DNA of 64,000 bases, from the IMG/VR virus record IMGVR_UViG_2758568729_000001, positions 64,001 through 128,000 of that record, one strand, 5' to 3'. Source of the stretch: a virus. Taxonomy: Duplodnaviria; Caudoviricetes. This document shows positions 8,921 to 64,000 of this stretch, piece by piece. Numbering within the stretch: position 1 is the first letter of the stretch; the number at the start of each line of letters is the position of its first letter. The notes beneath the pieces were generated by a model. That model saw nothing but the letters and a program-made list of their open reading frames with translations, made no database searches and was not told the DNA's origin. A program made the position numbers and the translations under genes.

Positions 8921-10060
8921 ATGACCGACCGTAAGCCCGTCACCGACGGCATACCCACTGACGTTGCCTGGCAGGAAGGCCGCCGCATCTACATCAGATG
9001 CGGCTACAACAGCAACCTGAACAAGCAACTCCTGGAAATCAACGCGAAGTGGGACGGCGACGTTGGCGCCCGGTACGTCGGCACCACCCGCCGAGACGCC
9101 GTGCTCCCACTGGTGCAAGCCCACGTCGAACGCATCGCCGCCGCGACCGCCATCAAGACCGCCGGCCGCTGGATCGCCATTCCGTACGAGGCCGAGGCGA
9201 TCCGGGAGCACGCCCAAAGCCTCGGCGGCAAGTACGACAAGCCGACCAAGCGGTGGGCAATGCCCAGCGCCGATACCCTGGCCGACGTTCACCAGCGCGT
9301 CCACGACTGGACCGCAGCGGTCGAGGCGAAGCGGCAAGCCGAACGAGAGGCCGAGAAGGAAGCGCGCGCGGCGGCCGAGCGTGAAGGTCGGGACGCAGCA
9401 GCCGCGGCCAAGGCATCCCGGGAAGAACGCCTGATCGCCTCGTCGGGGCGCACCATCATGGAGGATCGGGGACAGGTCCGATCGCAGCGCCTACACGGGT
9501 GGATGCGCCGGCCGGAAGCGGAGCAGCGCAAACCTCAACCCGGAGACGTCCGCAAACTGCGGGACGGCCGCCGGGTGCTCGTCCTGAACAGTGAGGTGTG
9601 GTTCGCCTCCCAGGACGCGATCGATGACGGGCTCGCGGCGGGCGTCAACCTGTGGGAGGACCCCGGCTGGTTCTACAACTACAACTTCGTTGTGGTGGAG
9701 CCGACCGCCGAGGAGGTCGAGGCTGACCGCCAGGAGAAAGCCGAGCAGGACGACCTGACCGAATTGGCGGAGGTCATGAAGCTTGCGGATCGCACCCCGC
9801 GCCAAGCTGTTGACTCGTTGACCAACCTGGAAGGGGCGACGATCACCGAGGACTCAGCCGGCGGGATGACCATCCACGGCGGGCAGATCACCGTCACCCC
9901 CACCGACGAGGTGTGGTACCAGCACCCGGGTTGGTACGACGACTATGTCCGTACAGAAGGCCGGGTGGATGATCCGGAGTTGATCGCGCGAGTGCGCGCC
10001 ATCATCGCCGGTGGAGACCGCCGCCGGGGAGCCTACGCGGTAAAGGAGTTCCAGCGGTGA
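8921..10060 (+). CDS. hypothetical protein with two DUF5710-like repeats and a coiled coil
   Basis: IxxxY...xAKWD / GGKYDKPTKRW duplicated motif. Confidence 0.6.
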   Translation: MTDRKPVTDGIPTDVAWQEGRRIYIRCGYNSNLNKQLLEINAKWDGDVGARYVGTTRRDAVLPLVQAHVERIAAATAIKTAGRWIAIPYEAEAIREHAQSLGGKYDKPTKRWAMPSADTLADVHQRVHDWTAAVEAKRQAEREAEKEARAAAEREGRDAAAAAKASREERLIASSGRTIMEDRGQVRSQRLHGWMRRPEAEQRKPQPGDVRKLRDGRRVLVLNSEVWFASQDAIDDGLAAGVNLWEDPGWFYNYNFVVVEPTAEEVEADRQEKAEQDDLTELAEVMKLADRTPRQAVDSLTNLEGATITEDSAGGMTIHGGQITVTPTDEVWYQHPGWYDDYVRTEGRVDDPELIARVRAIIAGGDRRRGAYAVKEFQR

Positions 10061-10590
10061 CGAAGCGCGAACCGGTGTCGGTAGATGAAGCCGACCCGGT
10101 AGGGGCCACGGAAATCGCCGAACGGGCCGGGGTGGGGCGGCCTGCTGTGGAGCGGTGGCAGGAGCGTCACGCCGACACGTGGCCCGAGCGCCGGTGGACG
10201 GTGGGCGGTCGGCCGGCGTGGGACTGGGCGGTGGACATCGTGCCGTGGCTGGAGGCGACGGGTCGGATCGAACCGCAAGTGCGATCCCGCTCCACCGCAG
10301 CGAACCGGCGACGCCGGCTGAGTATTGAGCGTTCGCCCGAGACGGCCCGACCTCGGATCCGCGCCGAGGTGATGGCGTACGACGAGCCGATGGACCAGCA
10401 GCGGTTGGACGGCGCCGCCGAGGTGGAGGCGATGGTCGACGAGATTCTTGCCGCATGGCTGGCCAACCCGGTCGGTCACCGCAACGGCCTGCGCGGGTTC
10501 ACCGAGCGCTGGTTGCGGGACCACTACGCGACCTGGCGAGCGCCGTCCCCGGCATCTACCCACGCGCAGACCGGAGGTCTTGAGGCATGA
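10057..10590 (+). CDS. AlpA/excisionase-like HTH protein
   Basis: VGATEIAERAGVGRPAVERW...WP....GGRPAWDW. Confidence 0.6.
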   Translation: MTKREPVSVDEADPVGATEIAERAGVGRPAVERWQERHADTWPERRWTVGGRPAWDWAVDIVPWLEATGRIEPQVRSRSTAANRRRRLSIERSPETARPRIRAEVMAYDEPMDQQRLDGAAEVEAMVDEILAAWLANPVGHRNGLRGFTERWLRDHYATWRAPSPASTHAQTGGLEA

Positions 10591-10955
10591 CAGCACCGAT
10601 CATCGTCAACGCGGTCGACGGGCACCCGGTCTGCGCCGGCCCCGCCGACACCATCCAGGCGGCCCTACGTGGGGCGCAGCCGCTCACCATCACCGGCAAG
10701 CACGCCACCGGCGACACCGTGTACCTCGCTCCGCGCGACGGCGCCGACATCGCCCGTACCGTGCCCCACCCGGTGCACGGTGACATCCACTACGCCTGGG
10801 TCGACACCGCCCGGATGGGCGACGCGCCACAGCTCTCCGAGTTGTACCGCGATCGGGCCGCTCAAGGCAGGATCGCTGCCATGCAAGCAGAGGACCGCGG
10901 CCGGGCGATGGTGCCGGCGTGCGACAACTGTGGGGAGTGCTCGCGCTGTGTCTGA
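10587..10955 (+). CDS. hypothetical protein (C-terminal CxxCxxCxxC)
   Basis: Coupled ORF with RBS. Confidence 0.55.
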   Translation: MTAPIIVNAVDGHPVCAGPADTIQAALRGAQPLTITGKHATGDTVYLAPRDGADIARTVPHPVHGDIHYAWVDTARMGDAPQLSELYRDRAAQGRIAAMQAEDRGRAMVPACDNCGECSRCV

Positions 10956-11385
10956 CCCGATCGAAGGACGGCTTGGAACCCTGGTGCTCGGGGGCTGGAT
11001 TGCGCCCGCACCGACAGGCCACGACGAGGCGTTCTTTCTCTTGACCACCCCCGACAAGCGGGCGGCGCTGACGATGCCCGTGGTCGCTGCGACCCTCGGG
11101 CTCGGTGCGGCCGGCACGGTGACCGAGCGCCCGGACCCGGAGGTGCGGGTCGAGATCGGGGCCGACGGGTGGGCCACCCTGCACACCCCCGGTGGCGAGC
11201 GCTTTACCCGGCCGGTCGCGGCAGAGTGGGCGCAGATCGCGCACGAGCGCGGGCAGGTAGTGCTGTGCGTCGGGATGGCGCCGATGCCGCCCGGGATGAA
11301 TGAGGACGCCTACACCGATCGGTACGGCGTCAAGATTGCACTCGGGCTTGTCCCAGCAGCGAGGGTGCCGGCGGGGGAGCGCTGA
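10948..11385 (+). CDS. hypothetical protein
   Basis: Coupled ORF; GTG start estimated. Confidence 0.55.
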   Translation: MSDPIEGRLGTLVLGGWIAPAPTGHDEAFFLLTTPDKRAALTMPVVAATLGLGAAGTVTERPDPEVRVEIGADGWATLHTPGGERFTRPVAAEWAQIAHERGQVVLCVGMAPMPPGMNEDAYTDRYGVKIALGLVPAARVPAGER

Positions 11386-60281: not shown

Positions 60282-61288
60282 GCCGCACCTCGATCAAGTT
60301 CGGCGTACTTCGCGGCGAGCGCCACCGCGTCGGACATGCGGGCATCGGCAGGGGACCGGGAGGGGTTGCTGCCCGCCAGACCACCGGATTGGCGGCCCTG
60401 CCACACCCGATCCGACTGAACCCGCTGCGCCGAAAGCCGATGGAGTTGCATATCGAGGCTCACCCAGCCGCCAACAGCCATCTCCTTCGCCGCCTCAATC
60501 AGCTTCTCGGGCGGAACGTTCTCCTTCTCGATGAGCCGCTTGGCGTCGCGGGAGAATTTCCCGATGGCCCCGCTGGTGGGTGGGTCGCCGCCTGCGTCGG
60601 TGATGGCGTCGATCCACGCGGCGGTGACGTCCCGGGCGGTGACCTTGTCCGGGACAGCGACGTCCGTGCCGGGTGCGGTCGGGAACAGCGCTTCGGCTGT
60701 GGTGGCTTTGGCCGCGGTCCGCTTCGACGGCTTGGTGGTCTTCGGCTCGGCTGTGGTCGCCGGCGGCGGAGAAGAAGGAACTTCCGTAGGAAGTTCGGTC
60801 GGGTCGGGTCGGGTCGGGGGGACCGTGACTGCGGGTGCGACATCGGTGTGACTGTCGGCGTGAGTCACGTCAGCGTCACGCCGTGACGCACCCCCCGCTT
60901 GGGTGTTTTCGCCCTGATTCTGCGTTTTCGCCTTCGCTCGATCCCGCGCCCGCTGCTGCCGGGCCGCCGCCGCAGCGCGCTCCTTGAGAACCTGCTCCCT
61001 GGACGGTTGATGATCGGTCCACTGGTGAAACCGCCATCCCTCCTCGCCGTCACGCGTGACGCGCTCCCACAGACCAGACCGCTCCAACCTCGGGGTCAGG
61101 GCCTCACGGAGGCCCGGGGCGAGGTAGTCGACAACGTCATCAGGGACCCATCCGTCGGTGAGGTCATCCGACGCCCACGACCCAGCCACAGCCCACAGAC
61201 CGATCGCCGCGAGCCCCTCCAGATCGAGGCCGGTACGGATGCGCTTACGGTGCTTGTGGAACCCGTCGTCCATCCGGAACCACGTCAC
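60278..61288 (-). CDS. phage replication initiator protein
   Basis: WFRMDDGF..H.K, A.GLW...SW, TDGWVP, GWRFHQW..HQP and PTRPDPT motifs. Confidence 0.75.
   Translation of the reverse strand: MTWFRMDDGFHKHRKRIRTGLDLEGLAAIGLWAVAGSWASDDLTDGWVPDDVVDYLAPGLREALTPRLERSGLWERVTRDGEEGWRFHQWTDHQPSREQVLKERAAAAARQQRARDRAKAKTQNQGENTQAGGASRRDADVTHADSHTDVAPAVTVPPTRPDPTELPTEVPSSPPPATTAEPKTTKPSKRTAAKATTAEALFPTAPGTDVAVPDKVTARDVTAAWIDAITDAGGDPPTSGAIGKFSRDAKRLIEKENVPPEKLIEAAKEMAVGGWVSLDMQLHRLSAQRVQSDRVWQGRQSGGLAGSNPSRSPADARMSDAVALAAKYAELDRGAA
60778..60890. repeat. putative replication origin inside the initiator gene
   Basis: GAACTTCC/GGAAGTTC palindrome, tandem GGTCG units and clustered GTGAC/GTCAC motifs. Confidence 0.5.
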
Positions 61289-61641
61289 AGGACTCGCGCC
61301 CCCTTCCGGGTGTCGCGGGAACGGGAGACAGCCGGGACCGGTGGCAGGTTCATCGGGCACAGCCAGCACCCGTCACGCCTCGGCTTCGGCTGGTACTTCA
61401 GCGGGGCCCGTGAGTTGAGCCGGGTCAGCCCGGCGGCCCACGCCACCCCGGCGACGACGCACGAGTCCCACGGGTTCAGAGCCGCAGTCTCCGCTCGGCA
61501 CTGCTCCAGCACCGGGCAGTCCGACAGGCAGATGTGCCGGGCCAGCGGGTACAGGCTGCGGGTCGTCCACACATGGCTGTTCCGCTGGCACACGGCGTGC
61601 TGGCGCCACCCGGCGTCAAGGTCAATGGTTGGTGCGGTCAC
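61285..61641 (-). CDS. WhiB-family regulator
   Basis: W...AVC...ARHIC..CPV...C...VVAG. Confidence 0.7.
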   Translation of the reverse strand: MTAPTIDLDAGWRQHAVCQRNSHVWTTRSLYPLARHICLSDCPVLEQCRAETAALNPWDSCVVAGVAWAAGLTRLNSRAPLKYQPKPRRDGCWLCPMNLPPVPAVSRSRDTRKGARVL

Positions 61642-62054
61642 AGTGCGTCTCCGGTGGCGATCGTGGTGATCCGGCGGCGCCGGTACCGGGCGGGAACCCG
61701 AGTCGGGACGGCGTACAGGCGGACCGGGGGAGCGATCGGCCCTTCGACGCGGCACACCTCGCACCCTTCGGTGCGGGTCTGGTGGCGGCGGCGGGCGGTG
61801 TCGGTCCCGCAGGGCAACACATCATTCGGCCCGTACCGGGGGCCGCGAGGGGGAAGGAGTCCGTGGTCGCGGGCGTACGCGACGGCGGCCGGGCCGGAGG
61901 GCACCCGCAGGAGCGCGAACACCCTGCTGAGTTCCTGCGTGACGGCACCGGTGGTGCGGTTGGTTTTGAGGCCGATGGCGGCCCGGGTGAGCCCGTCGGC
62001 GAGGAGGTCGAGCAGGGTGAGTTGGTGGTCGGTGAGTTGCGGAATCTCAGGCAT
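61638..62054 (-). CDS. LuxR-type HTH protein with C-terminal Cys motif
   Basis: LTDHQ...L.LLADGL....IG...; CGT...H....C..C. Confidence 0.7.
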   Translation of the reverse strand: MPEIPQLTDHQLTLLDLLADGLTRAAIGLKTNRTTGAVTQELSRVFALLRVPSGPAAVAYARDHGLLPPRGPRYGPNDVLPCGTDTARRRHQTRTEGCEVCRVEGPIAPPVRLYAVPTRVPARYRRRRITTIATGDAL

Positions 62055-62691
62055 CGTTGGCCGCCTTCCGAGATCCCTTGCGCTTCCGCATCACCGTCAC
62101 CAGGCGGCTAGCGTTCGCGCCGCGCCGGTCGGTACCCCACGGCCGTGACGGCACCTCGCCCTCATGCCAGTAGGACAGGAACCGGCGGCGGGCGTTCGCC
62201 AGGTGGGTGGCGTAGCAGGACAGGTCACCGAGCGCAGCCCGTGCGAGCGCATGGTCATCGAACGCGGCCAGAGCGCCAATGACCTCCCGCTGCCGTTCCG
62301 TAAGGGTGGGGAGAATCTGAGCGAGAGCCAGCCGGTCAACGATGTGGTTCTCCGGCGACGGGGTGACCCGGGTGACGTCGGTCCAGTAGGTGACGAAGTT
62401 CGGGCCTGTGCCGCTTTCGCCCCACCCCTCGTCGTTCCGGTATGCGGCGCCTCGGTAGCTGAGGGTCTTCCGGTTCTCCGTCCACAGCGAGTCCTGCGCG
62501 GCCTGGAACAGCTTGTGCTCCGGGATCCAGTGTTCGGCCTCGTACAGGCGCTCTGCGGCGGCACCGAACGCTTCGGCGTACCGGTCGTCGTAGTCGCCGG
62601 CCATCGCCCGGGTTGTTGCCGCAGCGGACCGGGCGACGCGTTGCAGGTCGGCGAGGGTGTAGCCCCATCGGAGTTCGGTGTCGGTGTTCAT
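62047..62691 (-). CDS. ECF sigma-factor-like protein
   Basis: SPENHIVDR.AL..IL..LTERQREVI region-4-like segment. Confidence 0.55.
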   Translation of the reverse strand: MNTDTELRWGYTLADLQRVARSAAATTRAMAGDYDDRYAEAFGAAAERLYEAEHWIPEHKLFQAAQDSLWTENRKTLSYRGAAYRNDEGWGESGTGPNFVTYWTDVTRVTPSPENHIVDRLALAQILPTLTERQREVIGALAAFDDHALARAALGDLSCYATHLANARRRFLSYWHEGEVPSRPWGTDRRGANASRLVTVMRKRKGSRKAANDA

Positions 62692-63854
62692 GCTGCCTCT
62701 CCGAAGAGGTCGAGTTGCTGGTGCTGGATGACCACCGGAGATGTGGCCGGCATCGGGTTGGTTGGCTGAGCCGGTTCGGTGTGCTCCGTGGCGGCCCAGT
62801 CCCATCCGCTCTGGGTGAAGGACTCACCCGGCAGGTCGGCGAGCTGCGGGTGGTGGTCGTCGTAGACCTGCTTGCTGGTCTTGCCGAGAAGCAGGGAGTC
62901 CGCCACGCCGATCCGGGGGATCAGGTTGCGGGGGATGGTGTCGAGCCGGATCGGCCCGGTGGTGAGCCCACCCCGTTGGGCAAGGTGCGCGGCGTACACG
63001 GTGCACCGCAAGCGAGCGACGGCCGCGGTGAGCGGGTCCAGCTCCACCCCGTCAACCGAGGCGACCACGCGGGTGAGGGCATCACCGGGGGCGGACACGA
63101 TGCCGCCCGTGGCGACCAACCCGGCCTTGGCCTGGCGGGGGCGAAGGGTGCCGGTGGTGTACCACTCCCACAGGTAGTCCATGGCCCGGACCATGAAGTG
63201 CCCGGTGCCGGCGGTCGGGTCGACGGTGCGAATCAGCCGGTCGGCGCGGAAGGCGACGCACGCGGGGACCATCGTCCGGTCGAGGATGAAATCCGCCACC
63301 CACCACGGGGTTTGCGCCAACGCGTGCTCTTTGCGGCGGTCGTCGGTCACGGCCTGAAGCAGGTCCCCGATGATCCAACCGCTGATCGACGGCGGCCCGT
63401 CGATCACCTCGTAGGCGAGGGACGGTGCGTCACCGGCCCACCAATCGACCAGGTCTTGGATCGCTGCATCGGACGGGGTGCCGGCGTGCAGGTCCGGGTT
63501 GTACCGGGGGTGCATGAGCCACTGGGTAGCGGGATGCACGGTCAACCCAGCCATGGCCTGCAACAGTGCGACGCTCGGCGTCGGGTTCGGCATGTACCAG
63601 CCGGGCATTCCCTTCAGCCCGTCACGTAGCCACACGTTAATGAGCCCGTGGTCTTCAGCCCAGGCGGTGACAGCGGACAGGTACACCCACGCCCCGGCGA
63701 TGCGGGTGCGGCGGGCGTGGTCGGTGTATTCGGTGCTGGCGGGCGGGATGGTGCCGGCGAGGCGGTCGACGTGCTTTCGGAGGGCTTTGACGAGCGTGTG
63801 GGTGTATTTGGTGTTGTCCACCGGGTTGCTCGTTGGGTGAGTCTCGGTCGTCAT
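62688..63854 (-). CDS. truncated PglX-like (BREX-2) adenine methyltransferase, N-terminal half
   Basis: AW......WAEDHGLI, GDLLQ...RK.HAL.QTP..V..FILDRT, DPTAGTGHF, GVELDP and ADSLL motifs; no NPPY. Confidence 0.7.
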   Translation of the reverse strand: MTTETHPTSNPVDNTKYTHTLVKALRKHVDRLAGTIPPASTEYTDHARRTRIAGAWVYLSAVTAWAEDHGLINVWLRDGLKGMPGWYMPNPTPSVALLQAMAGLTVHPATQWLMHPRYNPDLHAGTPSDAAIQDLVDWWAGDAPSLAYEVIDGPPSISGWIIGDLLQAVTDDRRKEHALAQTPWWVADFILDRTMVPACVAFRADRLIRTVDPTAGTGHFMVRAMDYLWEWYTTGTLRPRQAKAGLVATGGIVSAPGDALTRVVASVDGVELDPLTAAVARLRCTVYAAHLAQRGGLTTGPIRLDTIPRNLIPRIGVADSLLLGKTSKQVYDDHHPQLADLPGESFTQSGWDWAATEHTEPAQPTNPMPATSPVVIQHQQLDLFGEAA

Positions 63855-64000
63855 GGCAGTCACCTCCGTCGATGTTTTGGTGGGAATGGTGGAGCGCGGC
63901 CCGCCCCGTGCCGGACCGCGCCCCGTCGACCGAATCAGCCGGACTTGCAGGTTTTGTCCAGCCGGCACGCGGCCTCCGCTCCCACCCGCCGCTGTAGCTC

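What the first reader, a model, noticed from the sequence alone, without database searches (positions are those of the whole stretch)
62688..63854. Phage-encoded PglX N-terminal half lacking the catalytic motif: possible anti-Pgl/BREX decoy
Seen: an intact ORF coupled to the downstream gene, keeping PglX-type motifs through the SAM-binding motif I (DPTAGTGHF) and ADSLL. It then ends in a low-complexity tail without NPPY or a target-recognition domain, and no other pgl/brx genes are in the window. Known: PglX is the core methyltransferase of the actinomycete Pgl (BREX type 2) defence. Inference: it may be a dominant-negative subunit mimic or SAM-binding sponge expressed early. It ends in QLDLF, a beta-clamp-binding-like motif that could target it to replicating DNA.
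Basis: partly seen in the sequence, partly recalled or inferred. Interest (0 to 1): 0.75.

Follow-up and report, generated by a model that had tools for sequence, protein, structure and literature searches.

The report
Clamp-tethered half-PglX protein of a prophage
A prophage gene encodes the front half of the PglX defence methyltransferase, without its catalytic and DNA-reading parts but with a new tail that should bind the DNA sliding clamp; it belongs to a conserved, unstudied family of phage and mobile-element proteins that may disarm Pgl/BREX defence or link replication to phage transcription.

Summary
Window 62688-63854 (-) is an intact 388-aa gene in the early/replication region of a ~75-kb prophage. 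It matches only positions 53-328 of the 1185-position BREX-2 PglX model (E 8e-29). The model shows a helical N-domain plus strands 1-3 of the methyltransferase fold (motifs X, I, II, III). A disordered tail follows, ending in QLDLF, the consensus beta-clamp-binding peptide.

It is not a recent truncation. More than 230 same-length homologues (44-78% identity) form one clade nested in BREX-2 PglX on a long stem. dN/dS is 0.17-0.34. None of the best 120 homologues has NPPY, but a few other members keep NPPY and motif V before the clamp tail.

The family lies in prophages, viral contigs and conjugative-element-like islands, never in pgl/brx loci. The clamp motif occurs in phage-type members only, and full-length PglX lacks it.

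New here: the translationally coupled downstream gene is an ECF-sigma-like protein. It sits directly beside family members in at least seven loci, in either order.

The function is unproven. My best reading is an anti-Pgl/BREX dominant-negative tethered to the replication fork (about 0.35). The main rival is a clamp-linked partner of the phage sigma factor (about 0.25). This host has no PglX or PglZ. This scan had noted the same stretch once before, untested.

The parts
62688..63854 (-). Gene for the 388-aa half-PglX protein (P0001), stop codon included
   Evidence: ORF and translation. NCBIfam BREX_2_MTaseX E 8.4e-29 over profile positions 53-328 of 1185. PADLOC PglX E 1e-29. More than 230 homologues of the same length.
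63863..63867 (-). Shine-Dalgarno GGAGG, 8 nt upstream of the ATG at 63854
   Evidence: Read from the sequence.
63255..63827 (-). Helical N-terminal domain (residues ~10-200), homologous to the PglX/BrxX N-domain and to HsdM_N. It contains the family-invariant WAEDH at 63648-63662.
   Evidence: AF2 model with pLDDT mostly above 90. VIA-align gives PglX 8c45 Z 11.7 (model 10-347 against chain 1-497), HsdM chains Z 9-10 and MmeI 161-460 Z 11.6. Invariant columns.
63273..63317 (-). Motif X region (AQTPWWVADFILDRT, residues 180-194). The T-P pair is shared with full-length PglX.
   Evidence: Alignments A1 and A2.
62835..63242 (-). Truncated Rossmann half (residues ~205-340): strands 1-3 only, with motif I at 63195-63224, motif II at 63033-63056 and motif III at 62886-62912. 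Motifs IV-VIII and the target-recognition domain are absent.
   Evidence: AF2 secondary structure shows strands at 229-230, 267-271 and 314-317. D212, G216, T217, G218, G269, D273 and D319 are invariant in 34 homologues. No NPPY.
63075..63176 (-). Family-specific conserved segment and insert after motif I (YLWEWYTTG... residues 227-260). The ~15-residue insert within it is absent from full-length PglX.
   Evidence: Alignment A2, columns ~270-295. W229, T234 and G235 are invariant.
62718..62834 (-). Disordered Pro/Ala-rich linker (residues 341-379), variable in length and sequence. It includes the semi-conserved HPxLADLPG..F....W motif at 62796-62852.
   Evidence: pLDDT 38-45. Column entropy is about 3-3.5 bits, and the distance from motif III to the clamp motif is 32-61 residues in homologues.
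62703..62717 (-). QLDLF (residues 380-384), a consensus beta-clamp-binding motif four residues from the C-terminus
   Evidence: A relaxed motif lies in the last 30 aa of 51 of 120 homologues and the strict motif in 33 of 120. D is conserved at the unconstrained position in 36 of 51. QLDLF is the strongest-binding consensus pentapeptide (PMC11139829). Physical binding was not tested.
62047..62691 (-). Downstream gene, translationally coupled by an ATGA overlap: a 214-aa ECF-sigma-like protein (P0271)
   Evidence: Some homologues hit PF08281 Sigma70_r4_2. The AF2 model's best PDB matches are ECF sigma factors H and L of M. tuberculosis, with probability up to 1.0 and E 5e-3 to 5e-2. A homologue lies directly beside the family gene in L026, L036, L037, L042, L045 and L046.

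Best explanation
What is shown. The gene encodes a stable, selected, non-enzymatic derivative of the BREX type 2 (Pgl) methyltransferase PglX. It keeps the helical N-domain and the SAM-binding half of the methyltransferase fold (motifs X, I, II, III). It has lost the catalytic half and the DNA-recognition domain. It has gained a flexible tail ending in the consensus beta-clamp-binding peptide QLDLF.

What is inferred. The most likely mechanism is as follows. The protein is made early from the prophage or phage. The tail docks it on sliding clamps loaded on replicating phage DNA, either the host's clamp or, in this phage, its own DnaN. There the PglX-like core acts as a dominant-negative stand-in for host PglX. 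It would occupy the partners that PglX engages through its N-half (PglY/BrxC, PglZ, or PglX itself) without being able to read or methylate DNA. Pgl/BREX-2 would then be unable to mark or block the phage genome. Relatives that lack the clamp tail would do the same for conjugative-element-like islands.
For: Homology and structure:
- The homology is specific to BREX-2 PglX and covers only its N-terminal quarter.
- The structural match runs over PglX residues 1-497, MmeI and HsdM.
- Motifs IV-VIII are missing, so the protein cannot methylate on its own.
- Residues of the SAM-binding motifs are invariant.

Evolution:
- There are more than 230 same-length homologues.
- They form one clade (SH-aLRT 100) on a 1.83 substitutions/site stem inside BREX-2 PglX.
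- dN/dS is 0.17-0.34.
- A few members (position in the tree unresolved) keep NPPY and motif V before the clamp tail, which looks like stepwise truncation.

Context:
- The family lies only in mobile elements. These are prophage early regions and nine IMG/VR contigs, and islands with DUF4192, ArdC_N, ComM, DprA and NlpC_P60.
- It is never found in pgl/brx loci.
- Neighbours include anti-restriction-type genes: ArdC_N, DpdA with Vut_1, and orphan N6_N4 methyltransferases.
- Full PglX is common in the host taxa: 45 of 201 and 43 of 251 genomes. It co-resides in 6 of 15 other carrier genomes.

Clamp motif:
- It is conserved at the C-terminus after an unconserved linker.
- It is absent from full-length PglX.

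Literature:
- The BrxX N- and C-domains are proposed to contact BrxC and BrxZ (PMC11842806).
- The N-domain is proposed as a conserved interface (PMC12839542).
- PglX is toxic without PglZ, which implies functional coupling between the two (PMC4365076).
Against: - There is no direct evidence of binding to, or inhibition of, any Pgl/BREX component.
- The family is only ~25-37% identical to PglX and has its own invariant residues and an insert. A pure mimic might be expected to stay closer to the original.
- This lysogen has no PglX or PglZ.
- None of the eight phage-type carrier genomes examined has full PglX.
- A titrating decoy does not obviously need a clamp tether.
- The recurrent pairing with an ECF-sigma-like gene is not predicted by this model, although anti-defence genes often sit beside regulators.
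- tblastn found no relative in 50,697 deposited phage genomes.
Confidence: 0.35

Rival explanations
1. Replication-coupled transcription module. The protein is the clamp-binding partner (co-activator or anti-sigma-like regulator) of the adjacent phage ECF-sigma-like factor. It would tie that sigma or RNA polymerase to DNA-loaded sliding clamps, so that middle or late genes fire only on replicating DNA. This is the logic of T4 gp33/gp55 with the gp45 clamp, and of Mu MuC.
For: - The gene is translationally coupled (ATGA) to P0271, which is ECF-sigma-like.
- A P0271 homologue lies directly next to the family gene in six further sequenced loci, upstream in three and downstream in three. These include members that still keep NPPY.
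- In L046 the sigma is 79% identical to P0271, but its partner is only 47% identical to P0001. Adjacency is therefore kept across subtype exchange.
- The consensus clamp motif on a flexible C-terminal tail occurs only in phage-type members.
- This phage encodes its own DnaN three genes upstream.
- ECF sigma genes are typically paired with their regulator (established knowledge).
- Precedents: T4 and the Mu MuC preprint 10.1101/2025.01.04.631326.
Against: - About half of the phage-type loci have no such sigma within 4.5 kb.
- The sigma also occurs without the family gene, as in L047.
- Island-type members have neither sigma nor clamp motif, but keep the same core. Their conserved upstream partner is unrelated to the sigma (hhalign probability 1.8%).
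- The invariant SAM-binding residues are unexplained by this model.
- No known anti-sigma or co-activator domain was detected.
Confidence: 0.25
2. Non-catalytic regulatory subunit of an active methyltransferase, in the manner of DNMT3L or METTL14. The protein would pair with a full-length gamma-class methyltransferase of the host or phage and bring it to the clamp, so that nascent phage DNA is methylated and protected. It would be a positive rather than a negative regulator.
For: - The SAM-binding half and the HsdM_N-type N-domain are conserved. HsdM_N is a dimerisation module in Type I methyltransferases (PMC12839542).
- The clamp tether recalls DNMT1 with PCNA (established knowledge).
- The host has two Eco57I/MmeI-type large methyltransferases at 5.68-5.70 Mb.
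- Some relatives' phages carry N6_N4 methyltransferases nearby.
Against: - No partner methyltransferase is conserved beside the gene.
- No second gamma-class methyltransferase piece lies in this prophage.
- BrxX is reported to act as a monomer (PMC12839542).
Confidence: 0.1
3. Clamp hijacker. The consensus-strength motif lets the protein compete with host polymerases, or with Hda-like factors, for the beta clamp. This would redirect or shut down host replication. The PglX-like core would serve only as a scaffold.
For: - QLDLF is the highest-affinity natural-type clamp-binding motif (PMC11139829).
- Overproduced MuC depletes clamps and is toxic through its motif.
- The phage has its own DnaN, 64% identical to the host's.
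Against: - The core is far more conserved than a scaffold needs to be, including its SAM-motif residues.
- Many members lack the motif altogether.
Confidence: 0.08
4. SAM sponge. The half-domain binds S-adenosylmethionine and lowers the free pool that BREX and restriction-modification systems need.
For: - Motifs X, I, II and III are conserved.
- BREX defence depends on SAM, as shown by the T3 SAMase work (10.1101/2023.02.27.530186, seen).
Against: - A stoichiometric binder cannot deplete a metabolite that is continually made (inference).
- Known phage solutions are catalytic, such as SAM lyase.
- This model explains neither the clamp tail nor the N-domain.
Confidence: 0.04
5. A decaying remnant of a pglX gene, with no function of its own.
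For: - It covers only a quarter of PglX.
- One relative, L020, is broken by a stop.
Against: - The length is conserved in more than 230 homologues.
- dN/dS is 0.17-0.34.
- The model is confident (pTM 0.82).
- A new conserved C-terminal motif has been gained.
- The gene has its own ribosome-binding site and is translationally coupled to the next gene.
Confidence: 0.01

Closest known systems
PglX (BrxX), the N6-adenine methyltransferase of BREX type 2 / Pgl (NCBIfam NF033451; structures 8C45, 9EWZ for type 1)
   Same: The helical N-domain and the first half of the gamma-class methyltransferase fold are homologous, with motifs X, I, II and III. The family nests within BREX-2 PglX in the tree.
   Different: It is one third of the length. 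It has no motif IV-VIII, no target-recognition or C-terminal domain, and no basic C-tail. It has its own insert after motif I and a clamp-binding tail that PglX lacks. It is encoded on mobile elements and never with pglW, pglY or pglZ.
Virus-encoded homologues of defence components used as inhibitors, such as viral cas genes that antagonise CRISPR immunity (10.1101/2023.06.24.545427)
   Same: The concept is the same: a mobile element carries a diverged or partial copy of a host immune component that could poison the complex.
   Different: A different immune system is involved. No inhibition has been shown here. No anti-BREX protein of this type has been described in the papers searched.
Known anti-BREX factors: T7 Ocr (DNA mimic that binds BrxX), T3 SAM lyase, ICP1 OrbA
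   Same: They are phage-encoded early proteins directed at BREX. Ocr targets PglX/BrxX itself (PMC7261183, PMC11341690).
   Different: There is no sequence or fold relation. This protein would mimic the methyltransferase, not its DNA substrate, and would not degrade SAM.
T4 gp33/gp55 with the gp45 clamp, and Mu MuC with the beta clamp
   Same: These are phage proteins with short clamp-binding motifs that couple transcription to DNA-loaded clamps. Here a clamp-motif protein is coupled to a sigma-like gene.
   Different: There is no homology. gp55 itself carries the clamp tail, whereas here the sigma-like protein has none. The association is facultative.
DNMT3L and METTL14, catalytically dead methyltransferase paralogues; DNMT1 with PCNA
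   Same: A methyltransferase-fold protein without catalytic motifs acts through protein contacts. Methylation machinery is tethered to the sliding clamp (established knowledge).
   Different: Those proteins are eukaryotic, unrelated in sequence, and keep a complete fold. Here the fold itself is cut after strand 3.

Membership tests
BREX-2 PglX (NF033451 equivalog) | Full-length match above the curated cut-off (400 bits over ~1185 positions) | tested here: not met
   100 bits, covering positions 53-328 only.
BREX-2 PglX (NF033451 equivalog) | N-terminal helical domain and SAM-binding motif I homologous to PglX | tested here: met
   HMM matches. Alignment A2. Structural match to 8c45 and 9ewz, Z 11.4-11.7.
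BREX-2 PglX (NF033451 equivalog) | Catalytic motif IV (NPPY) | tested here: not met
   No [NDS]PP[YFW] in P0001 or in the best 120 homologues. It is present only in a few other members: P0124, L045 and L046.
BREX-2 PglX (NF033451 equivalog) | Target-recognition and C-terminal domains | tested here: not met
   The protein ends after a disordered tail at residue 388.
BREX-2 PglX (NF033451 equivalog) | Encoded with pglZ, pglY and pglW | tested here: not met
   No PglZ anywhere in the complete genome. The neighbours are phage replication genes. Homologue contexts contain no pgl genes.
Active gamma-class N6-adenine DNA methyltransferase | Complete seven-stranded Rossmann fold with motifs X, I-VIII | tested here: not met
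   Only three strands and motifs X, I, II and III are present.
Split methyltransferase with a separately encoded second half | A gene for motifs IV-VIII and a recognition domain nearby or elsewhere in the genome | tested here: not met
   The only other PglX, Eco57I or N6_Mtase matches in the genome are two complete large enzymes at 5.68-5.70 Mb. No conserved neighbour of that kind exists.
Beta-clamp-binding proteins (clamp-binding motif Q-phi-x-[L/M]-[F/L]) | Motif matching the consensus | tested here: met
   QLDLF at residues 380-384 equals the Dalrymple consensus.
Beta-clamp-binding proteins (clamp-binding motif Q-phi-x-[L/M]-[F/L]) | Motif lies in an accessible, disordered terminus and is conserved while its flanks are not | tested here: met
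   pLDDT is below 50 for residues 342-383. 51 of 120 homologues carry it 3-6 residues from the end after a Pro/Ala-rich variable linker.
Beta-clamp-binding proteins (clamp-binding motif Q-phi-x-[L/M]-[F/L]) | Physical binding to DnaN | not testable with these tools
It needs a pull-down, ITC or two-hybrid assay.
Anti-BREX / anti-defence proteins | Encoded by a mobile element, in an early or accessory region | tested here: met
   Prophage early operon. Viral contigs. Conjugative-element-like islands.
Anti-BREX / anti-defence proteins | Homology to a described anti-BREX family (Ocr, SAM lyase, OrbA) | tested here: not met
   No Pfam or PHROG family matches at all.
Anti-BREX / anti-defence proteins | Inhibits BREX/Pgl | not testable with these tools
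   Requires phage plating on Pgl+ and Pgl- hosts.
Sigma / anti-sigma (or co-activator) gene pair | Adjacent, co-oriented, often overlapping genes, with linkage kept across relatives | tested here: inconclusive
   Adjacent in seven sequenced loci, in both orders. Absent from about half of the phage-type loci. The sigma occurs alone in L047.
Sigma / anti-sigma (or co-activator) gene pair | Recognisable anti-sigma domain | tested here: not met
   No Pfam or NCBIfam family other than PglX.

The most novel reading that the evidence does not exclude
The family would be the first anti-Pgl/BREX-2 factor, and the first anti-defence protein built from a fragment of the defence enzyme itself and tethered by a consensus clamp-binding motif to replicating phage DNA. 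It would poison PglX-dependent complexes exactly where nascent, unmarked DNA appears. In some phages it would be co-regulated with, or act together with, a phage ECF sigma factor.
Probability: 0.25. Interest if true: 0.85.

Novelty: new variant of a known kind. Interest (0 to 1): 0.62.

Why it matters
Pgl/BREX type 2 is common in actinomycetes. It was found in about a fifth of the genomes sampled here. Its mechanism is still disputed, and no phage counter-measure against it was found in the papers searched.

A mobile-element family that copies only the N-half of PglX would point to the surface through which PglX talks to the rest of the system. That would give a ready-made genetic and biochemical probe.

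The added clamp-binding tail would link defence, or counter-defence, to the replication fork. BREX is thought to act on phage replication.

If the sigma-coupled reading is right instead, this would be a T4-like replication-to-transcription link in actinophages, built from an unexpected fold. Either way, a family with hundreds of members, no Pfam or PHROG entry and a clear architecture becomes testable with simple assays.

Tried and rejected
- Pfam and PHROGs on P0001 gave no family.
- tblastn against 50,697 deposited phage genomes gave no match. A megablast of the right-hand 20 kb gave only trivial hits.
- A PDB sequence search with the family profile gave only weak motif-I hits. Foldseek against PDB and BFVD found only full-size methyltransferases and no protein of the same truncated build.
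- Split-enzyme idea: no second half exists in the prophage or genome. The upstream 505-aa gene is a membrane-type protein without NPPY.
- Universally conserved neighbour: none was found. Island-type members share an upstream ~270-340-aa gene of no known family. It is unrelated to the sigma-like protein (hhalign probability 1.8%).
- Phage-encoded DnaN as a general partner: no DnaN lies within 10 kb in 20 other loci.
- Clamp motif inherited from PglX: 39 full-length PglX sequences have none at their ends.
- Co-occurrence with resident PglX: 6 of 15 other carrier genomes have it, all island-type (6 of 9). None of eight phage-type carriers has it, against a background of 17-22%. The numbers are small and the elements are related, so nothing firm follows.
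- P0122, a longer 478-aa relative, looks like a gene-call fusion and gave no functional hint.
- The recent-truncation and pseudogene readings were rejected.
Full report
1. The observation

The ORF at window 62688-63854 on the minus strand is open and encodes 388 aa (P0001). A GGAGG lies 8 nt upstream of the ATG at 63854. The longer GTG-initiated reading (63968) is not supported by homologue N-termini. The TGA stop overlaps the ATG of the next gene as ATGA.

Pfam and PHROGs find nothing. NCBIfam BREX_2_MTaseX matches at E 8.4e-29, and PADLOC PglX at E 1e-29. Both cover only profile positions ~53-330 of ~1185. The BREX-1, -5 and -6 models match only at motif I.

There is no NPPY-type motif.

2. 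Setting

The window is G000:C1:8220949-8284948 of a complete 8.74-Mb single-contig genome. From the taxa of the closest homologues, the host is probably a Micromonosporaceae-type actinomycete. This is inference.

Reading outward, the gene lies in a long same-strand operon. In order, the operon holds:
- a large serine recombinase (window-equivalent ~86.4-88.1 kb);
- a YqaJ exonuclease, an RNase_T-like exonuclease (sub-threshold), a RusA-like protein and DUF5131;
- DnaN and SSB;
- a 505-aa membrane-type protein (P0270);
- this gene, then a 214-aa protein (P0271);
- weak LuxR-like and WhiB-like ORFs;
- a replication initiator, a phrog_6055 protein, DnaB and a dATP/dGTP pyrophosphohydrolase-domain protein;
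- terminase at 43.6-45.3 kb and further same-strand ORFs, which I did not annotate, down to ~12.3 kb.

This is a ~75-kb temperate phage, and the gene is in its early/replication region. The phage DnaN is 64% identical to the chromosomal one. The genome has no PglZ and no PglX above the cut-off. It has two Eco57I/MmeI-type large enzymes at 5.68-5.70 Mb.

3. Anatomy

An AlphaFold2 model built on 34 homologues is confident, with mean pLDDT 83 and pTM 0.82. It has four parts:
- a helical domain at residues ~10-200;
- a three-stranded alpha/beta half-domain at ~205-340;
- a disordered tail at 342-383;
- the terminal QLDLFGEAA.

Structural alignment places residues 10-347 on PglX/BrxX residues 1-~497 (8c45, 9ewz, 8zek; Z 11.2-11.7). 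It also places the model on MmeI 161-460 (Z 11.6), the PacII M subunit (Z 13) and Type I HsdM chains (Z 9-10). The protein is therefore an HsdM_N-type N-domain plus strands 1-3 of a gamma-class N6-adenine methyltransferase.

Motifs X (TP), I (D-P-x-x-G-T-G), II (G-V-E-x-D-P) and III (D-S-L-L) are invariant or nearly so across homologues. Everything from motif IV onward is missing, including the target-recognition domain. The protein cannot methylate DNA alone. It probably still binds SAM, which is inference from the conserved pocket residues.

4. A family, not an accident

A word-indexed search found 231 relatives of 300-400 aa, at 44-78% identity among the best 120. They come from Micromonospora, Streptosporangium, Glycomyces, Actinomadura, Phytohabitans, Spongiactinospora and many metagenomes.

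An exhaustive HMMER scan shows a gap. The short family scores down to ~1e-42. Full-length PglX (1150-1350 aa) then appears at ~1e-15, with 33-37% local identity over residues ~48-330.

In a tree of 29 short and 32 full-length N-halves, the short family is one clade (SH-aLRT 100). It sits on a stem of 1.83 substitutions per site, placed among BREX-2 PglX sequences with moderate support (quick search). Pairwise dN/dS for the folded core is 0.17-0.34 in pairs of 81% identity or more.

A few members still carry motif IV (NPPY) and motif V before stopping, and they also end in a clamp motif. These are P0124 (400 aa), the L045 copy, and a 402-aa protein in L046 that ends QFDLFGEAA. The two that were in the tree, and only P0124 among them, lie in the unresolved base of the clade. 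This looks like stepwise loss of the catalytic half.

One copy is broken by a stop (L020).

5. The tail

QLDLF is the Dalrymple consensus and the strongest-binding natural-type pentapeptide for the beta clamp (PMC11139829). Among the best 120 homologues, 51 have Q-[LPFIVM]-x-[LIMF]-[FWLY] in the last 30 residues, and 33 have the strict QL[DSNGAE]LF.

The motif sits 3-6 residues from the C-terminus. It follows a Pro/Ala-rich linker of variable length (32-61 residues from motif III) and high entropy. The unconstrained third position is Asp in 36 of 51. Thirty-nine full-length PglX sequences have no such motif and end in a basic tail, so the motif is a gain of the short family.

No DnaN lies near the gene in 20 other loci, so the usual target would be the host clamp.

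6. Where the family lives

Phage-type contexts are dense same-strand arrays with RecT/YqaJ, SSB, WhiB, HNH, DUF5131, DpdA with Vut_1, or N6_N4 methyltransferases. Nine IMG/VR viral contigs of 24-109 kb also carry the gene.

A nested subclade (P0033, P0041, P0045, P0058, P0065 and relatives; support 100) lacks the clamp motif. It lies instead in islands with DUF4192, ArdC_N (weak), ComM, DprA, NlpC_P60, an A24 peptidase and tyrosine recombinases. These look like integrative or conjugative elements. No member lies in a pgl/brx locus.

Full PglX is frequent in the relevant taxa. It occurs in 45 of 201 genomes of the host's family and in 43 of 251 genomes of a second family. The denominator of the first count includes two unpublished genomes, G197 and G065. 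Neither is among the 45.

Of 15 other carrier genomes, six also have full PglX, and all six carry the island type. None of eight phage-type carrier genomes does. These numbers are small and the elements are related to each other, so I draw no conclusion from them.

7. The coupled neighbour

P0271 (62047-62691) has no Pfam hit of its own. Several of its 75 homologues hit Sigma70_r4_2. Its alignment shows a region-4.2-like helix-turn-helix. Its model has two helical domains joined by a disordered linker, and its best PDB matches are ECF sigma factors H and L of M. tuberculosis, RpoE and sigma-28 (Foldseek probability up to 1.0, E-values weak).

tblastn and jackhmmer find a P0271 homologue directly beside the family gene in L026, L042 and L045 (upstream) and in L036, L037 and L046 (downstream).

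In L046 the sigma is 79% identical to P0271, but its partner is the NPPY-keeping subtype, only 47% identical to P0001. Linkage therefore survives exchange of subtype and inversion of order.

The pairing is facultative, however. About half of the phage-type loci lack the sigma within 4.5 kb. L047 has the sigma without the family gene. Island-type members have a different upstream partner of unknown family.

8. How it most likely works

Shown: a selected, non-catalytic N-half of PglX with a consensus clamp-binding tail, carried by mobile elements.

Inferred: the tail tethers the protein to DNA-loaded clamps. The core acts through protein contacts and probably SAM binding.

Two specific models fit.

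(a) Dominant-negative of Pgl/BREX-2. The literature proposes the BrxX N-domain as the interface to BrxC and PglZ (PMC11842806; PMC12839542). PglX and PglZ are functionally coupled (PMC4365076). BREX blocks phage replication. A fork-tethered dead copy could keep Pgl from marking or blocking nascent phage DNA. This model covers both phage-type and island-type members, and it fits the anti-restriction neighbours.

(b) A clamp-linked partner of the phage ECF sigma, by analogy with T4 gp33/gp55 with gp45 and with Mu MuC. This model explains the tail and the sigma linkage. It does not explain the island-type members or the conserved SAM pocket.

I rank (a) first at ~0.35 and (b) second at ~0.25. Smaller weights go to a DNMT3L-like positive regulator, a clamp hijacker and a SAM sponge.

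9. Comparison and novelty

The protein is homologous to PglX but fails every membership test beyond the N-half, so it should not be annotated as PglX or as a methyltransferase.

Functionally, the nearest described idea is mobile-element copies of immune components used as inhibitors, such as viral cas genes (10.1101/2023.06.24.545427). No such anti-BREX factor, and no clamp-tethered anti-defence protein, turned up in the papers searched. The family has no Pfam or PHROG entry, and its ESM Atlas cluster is unnamed.

I class it as a new variant of a known kind, with real but unproven interest.

Noticed in passing
window 62047-62691 (-): A phage-encoded ECF-sigma-like protein (P0271) with a conserved C-terminal WHEGE-PS-PWG-DRR motif. 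It has no Pfam hit of its own. The family has about 75 members in actinobacterial phage-like contigs.
   Followed up: yes
L001 3828-4973 (-), window-equivalent 67328-68473, just beyond the window: The prophage carries its own beta sliding clamp (DnaN, all three Pfam domains), 64% identical to the chromosomal DnaN at ~4.238 Mb. An SSB lies next to it.
   Followed up: partly
L001 435-1952 (-), window-equivalent 63935-65452: A 505-aa protein with N-terminal hydrophobic segments and no family in Pfam, PHROGs or NCBIfam sits between SSB and the half-PglX gene. It is an odd membrane-type gene inside a replication module.
   Followed up: partly
G000:C1:5683828-5704779 (L004, L005): Two large Eco57I/MmeI-type methyltransferase-domain proteins (open frames 1033 and 1493 aa) lie 17 kb apart, possibly in a defence island. 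Similar 1300-1900-aa proteins are widespread in the host's family.
   Followed up: partly
L011, L012, L014, L015, L017, L018: the ORF ending 2-53 nt before the family gene: Island-type (clamp-motif-less) family members share a conserved upstream ~270-340-aa protein of no known family, often overlapping the start of the family gene. It is unrelated to the sigma-like protein (hhalign probability 1.8%).
   Followed up: partly
G062:C36:9077-12609 and G191/G203:C5:3003123-3006656: In two genomes the resident full-length pglX is interrupted at the same profile position (~304-306), close to where the short family ends. This could be phase variation or decay.
   Followed up: no
L020 (Plantactinospora sp. 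CA-290183), match 10001-11080: This copy of the family gene is cut by an in-frame TGA into two ORFs and is probably a pseudogene.
   Followed up: partly
window 61285-61764 (-) and 61638-62054 (-): Two overlapping candidate regulator ORFs lie downstream of the sigma-like gene. One is weakly WhiB-like (E 0.026, with a C-x2-C-x5-C pattern) and one is weakly LuxR/GerE-like (E 0.25). Both are below the Pfam thresholds.
   Followed up: partly
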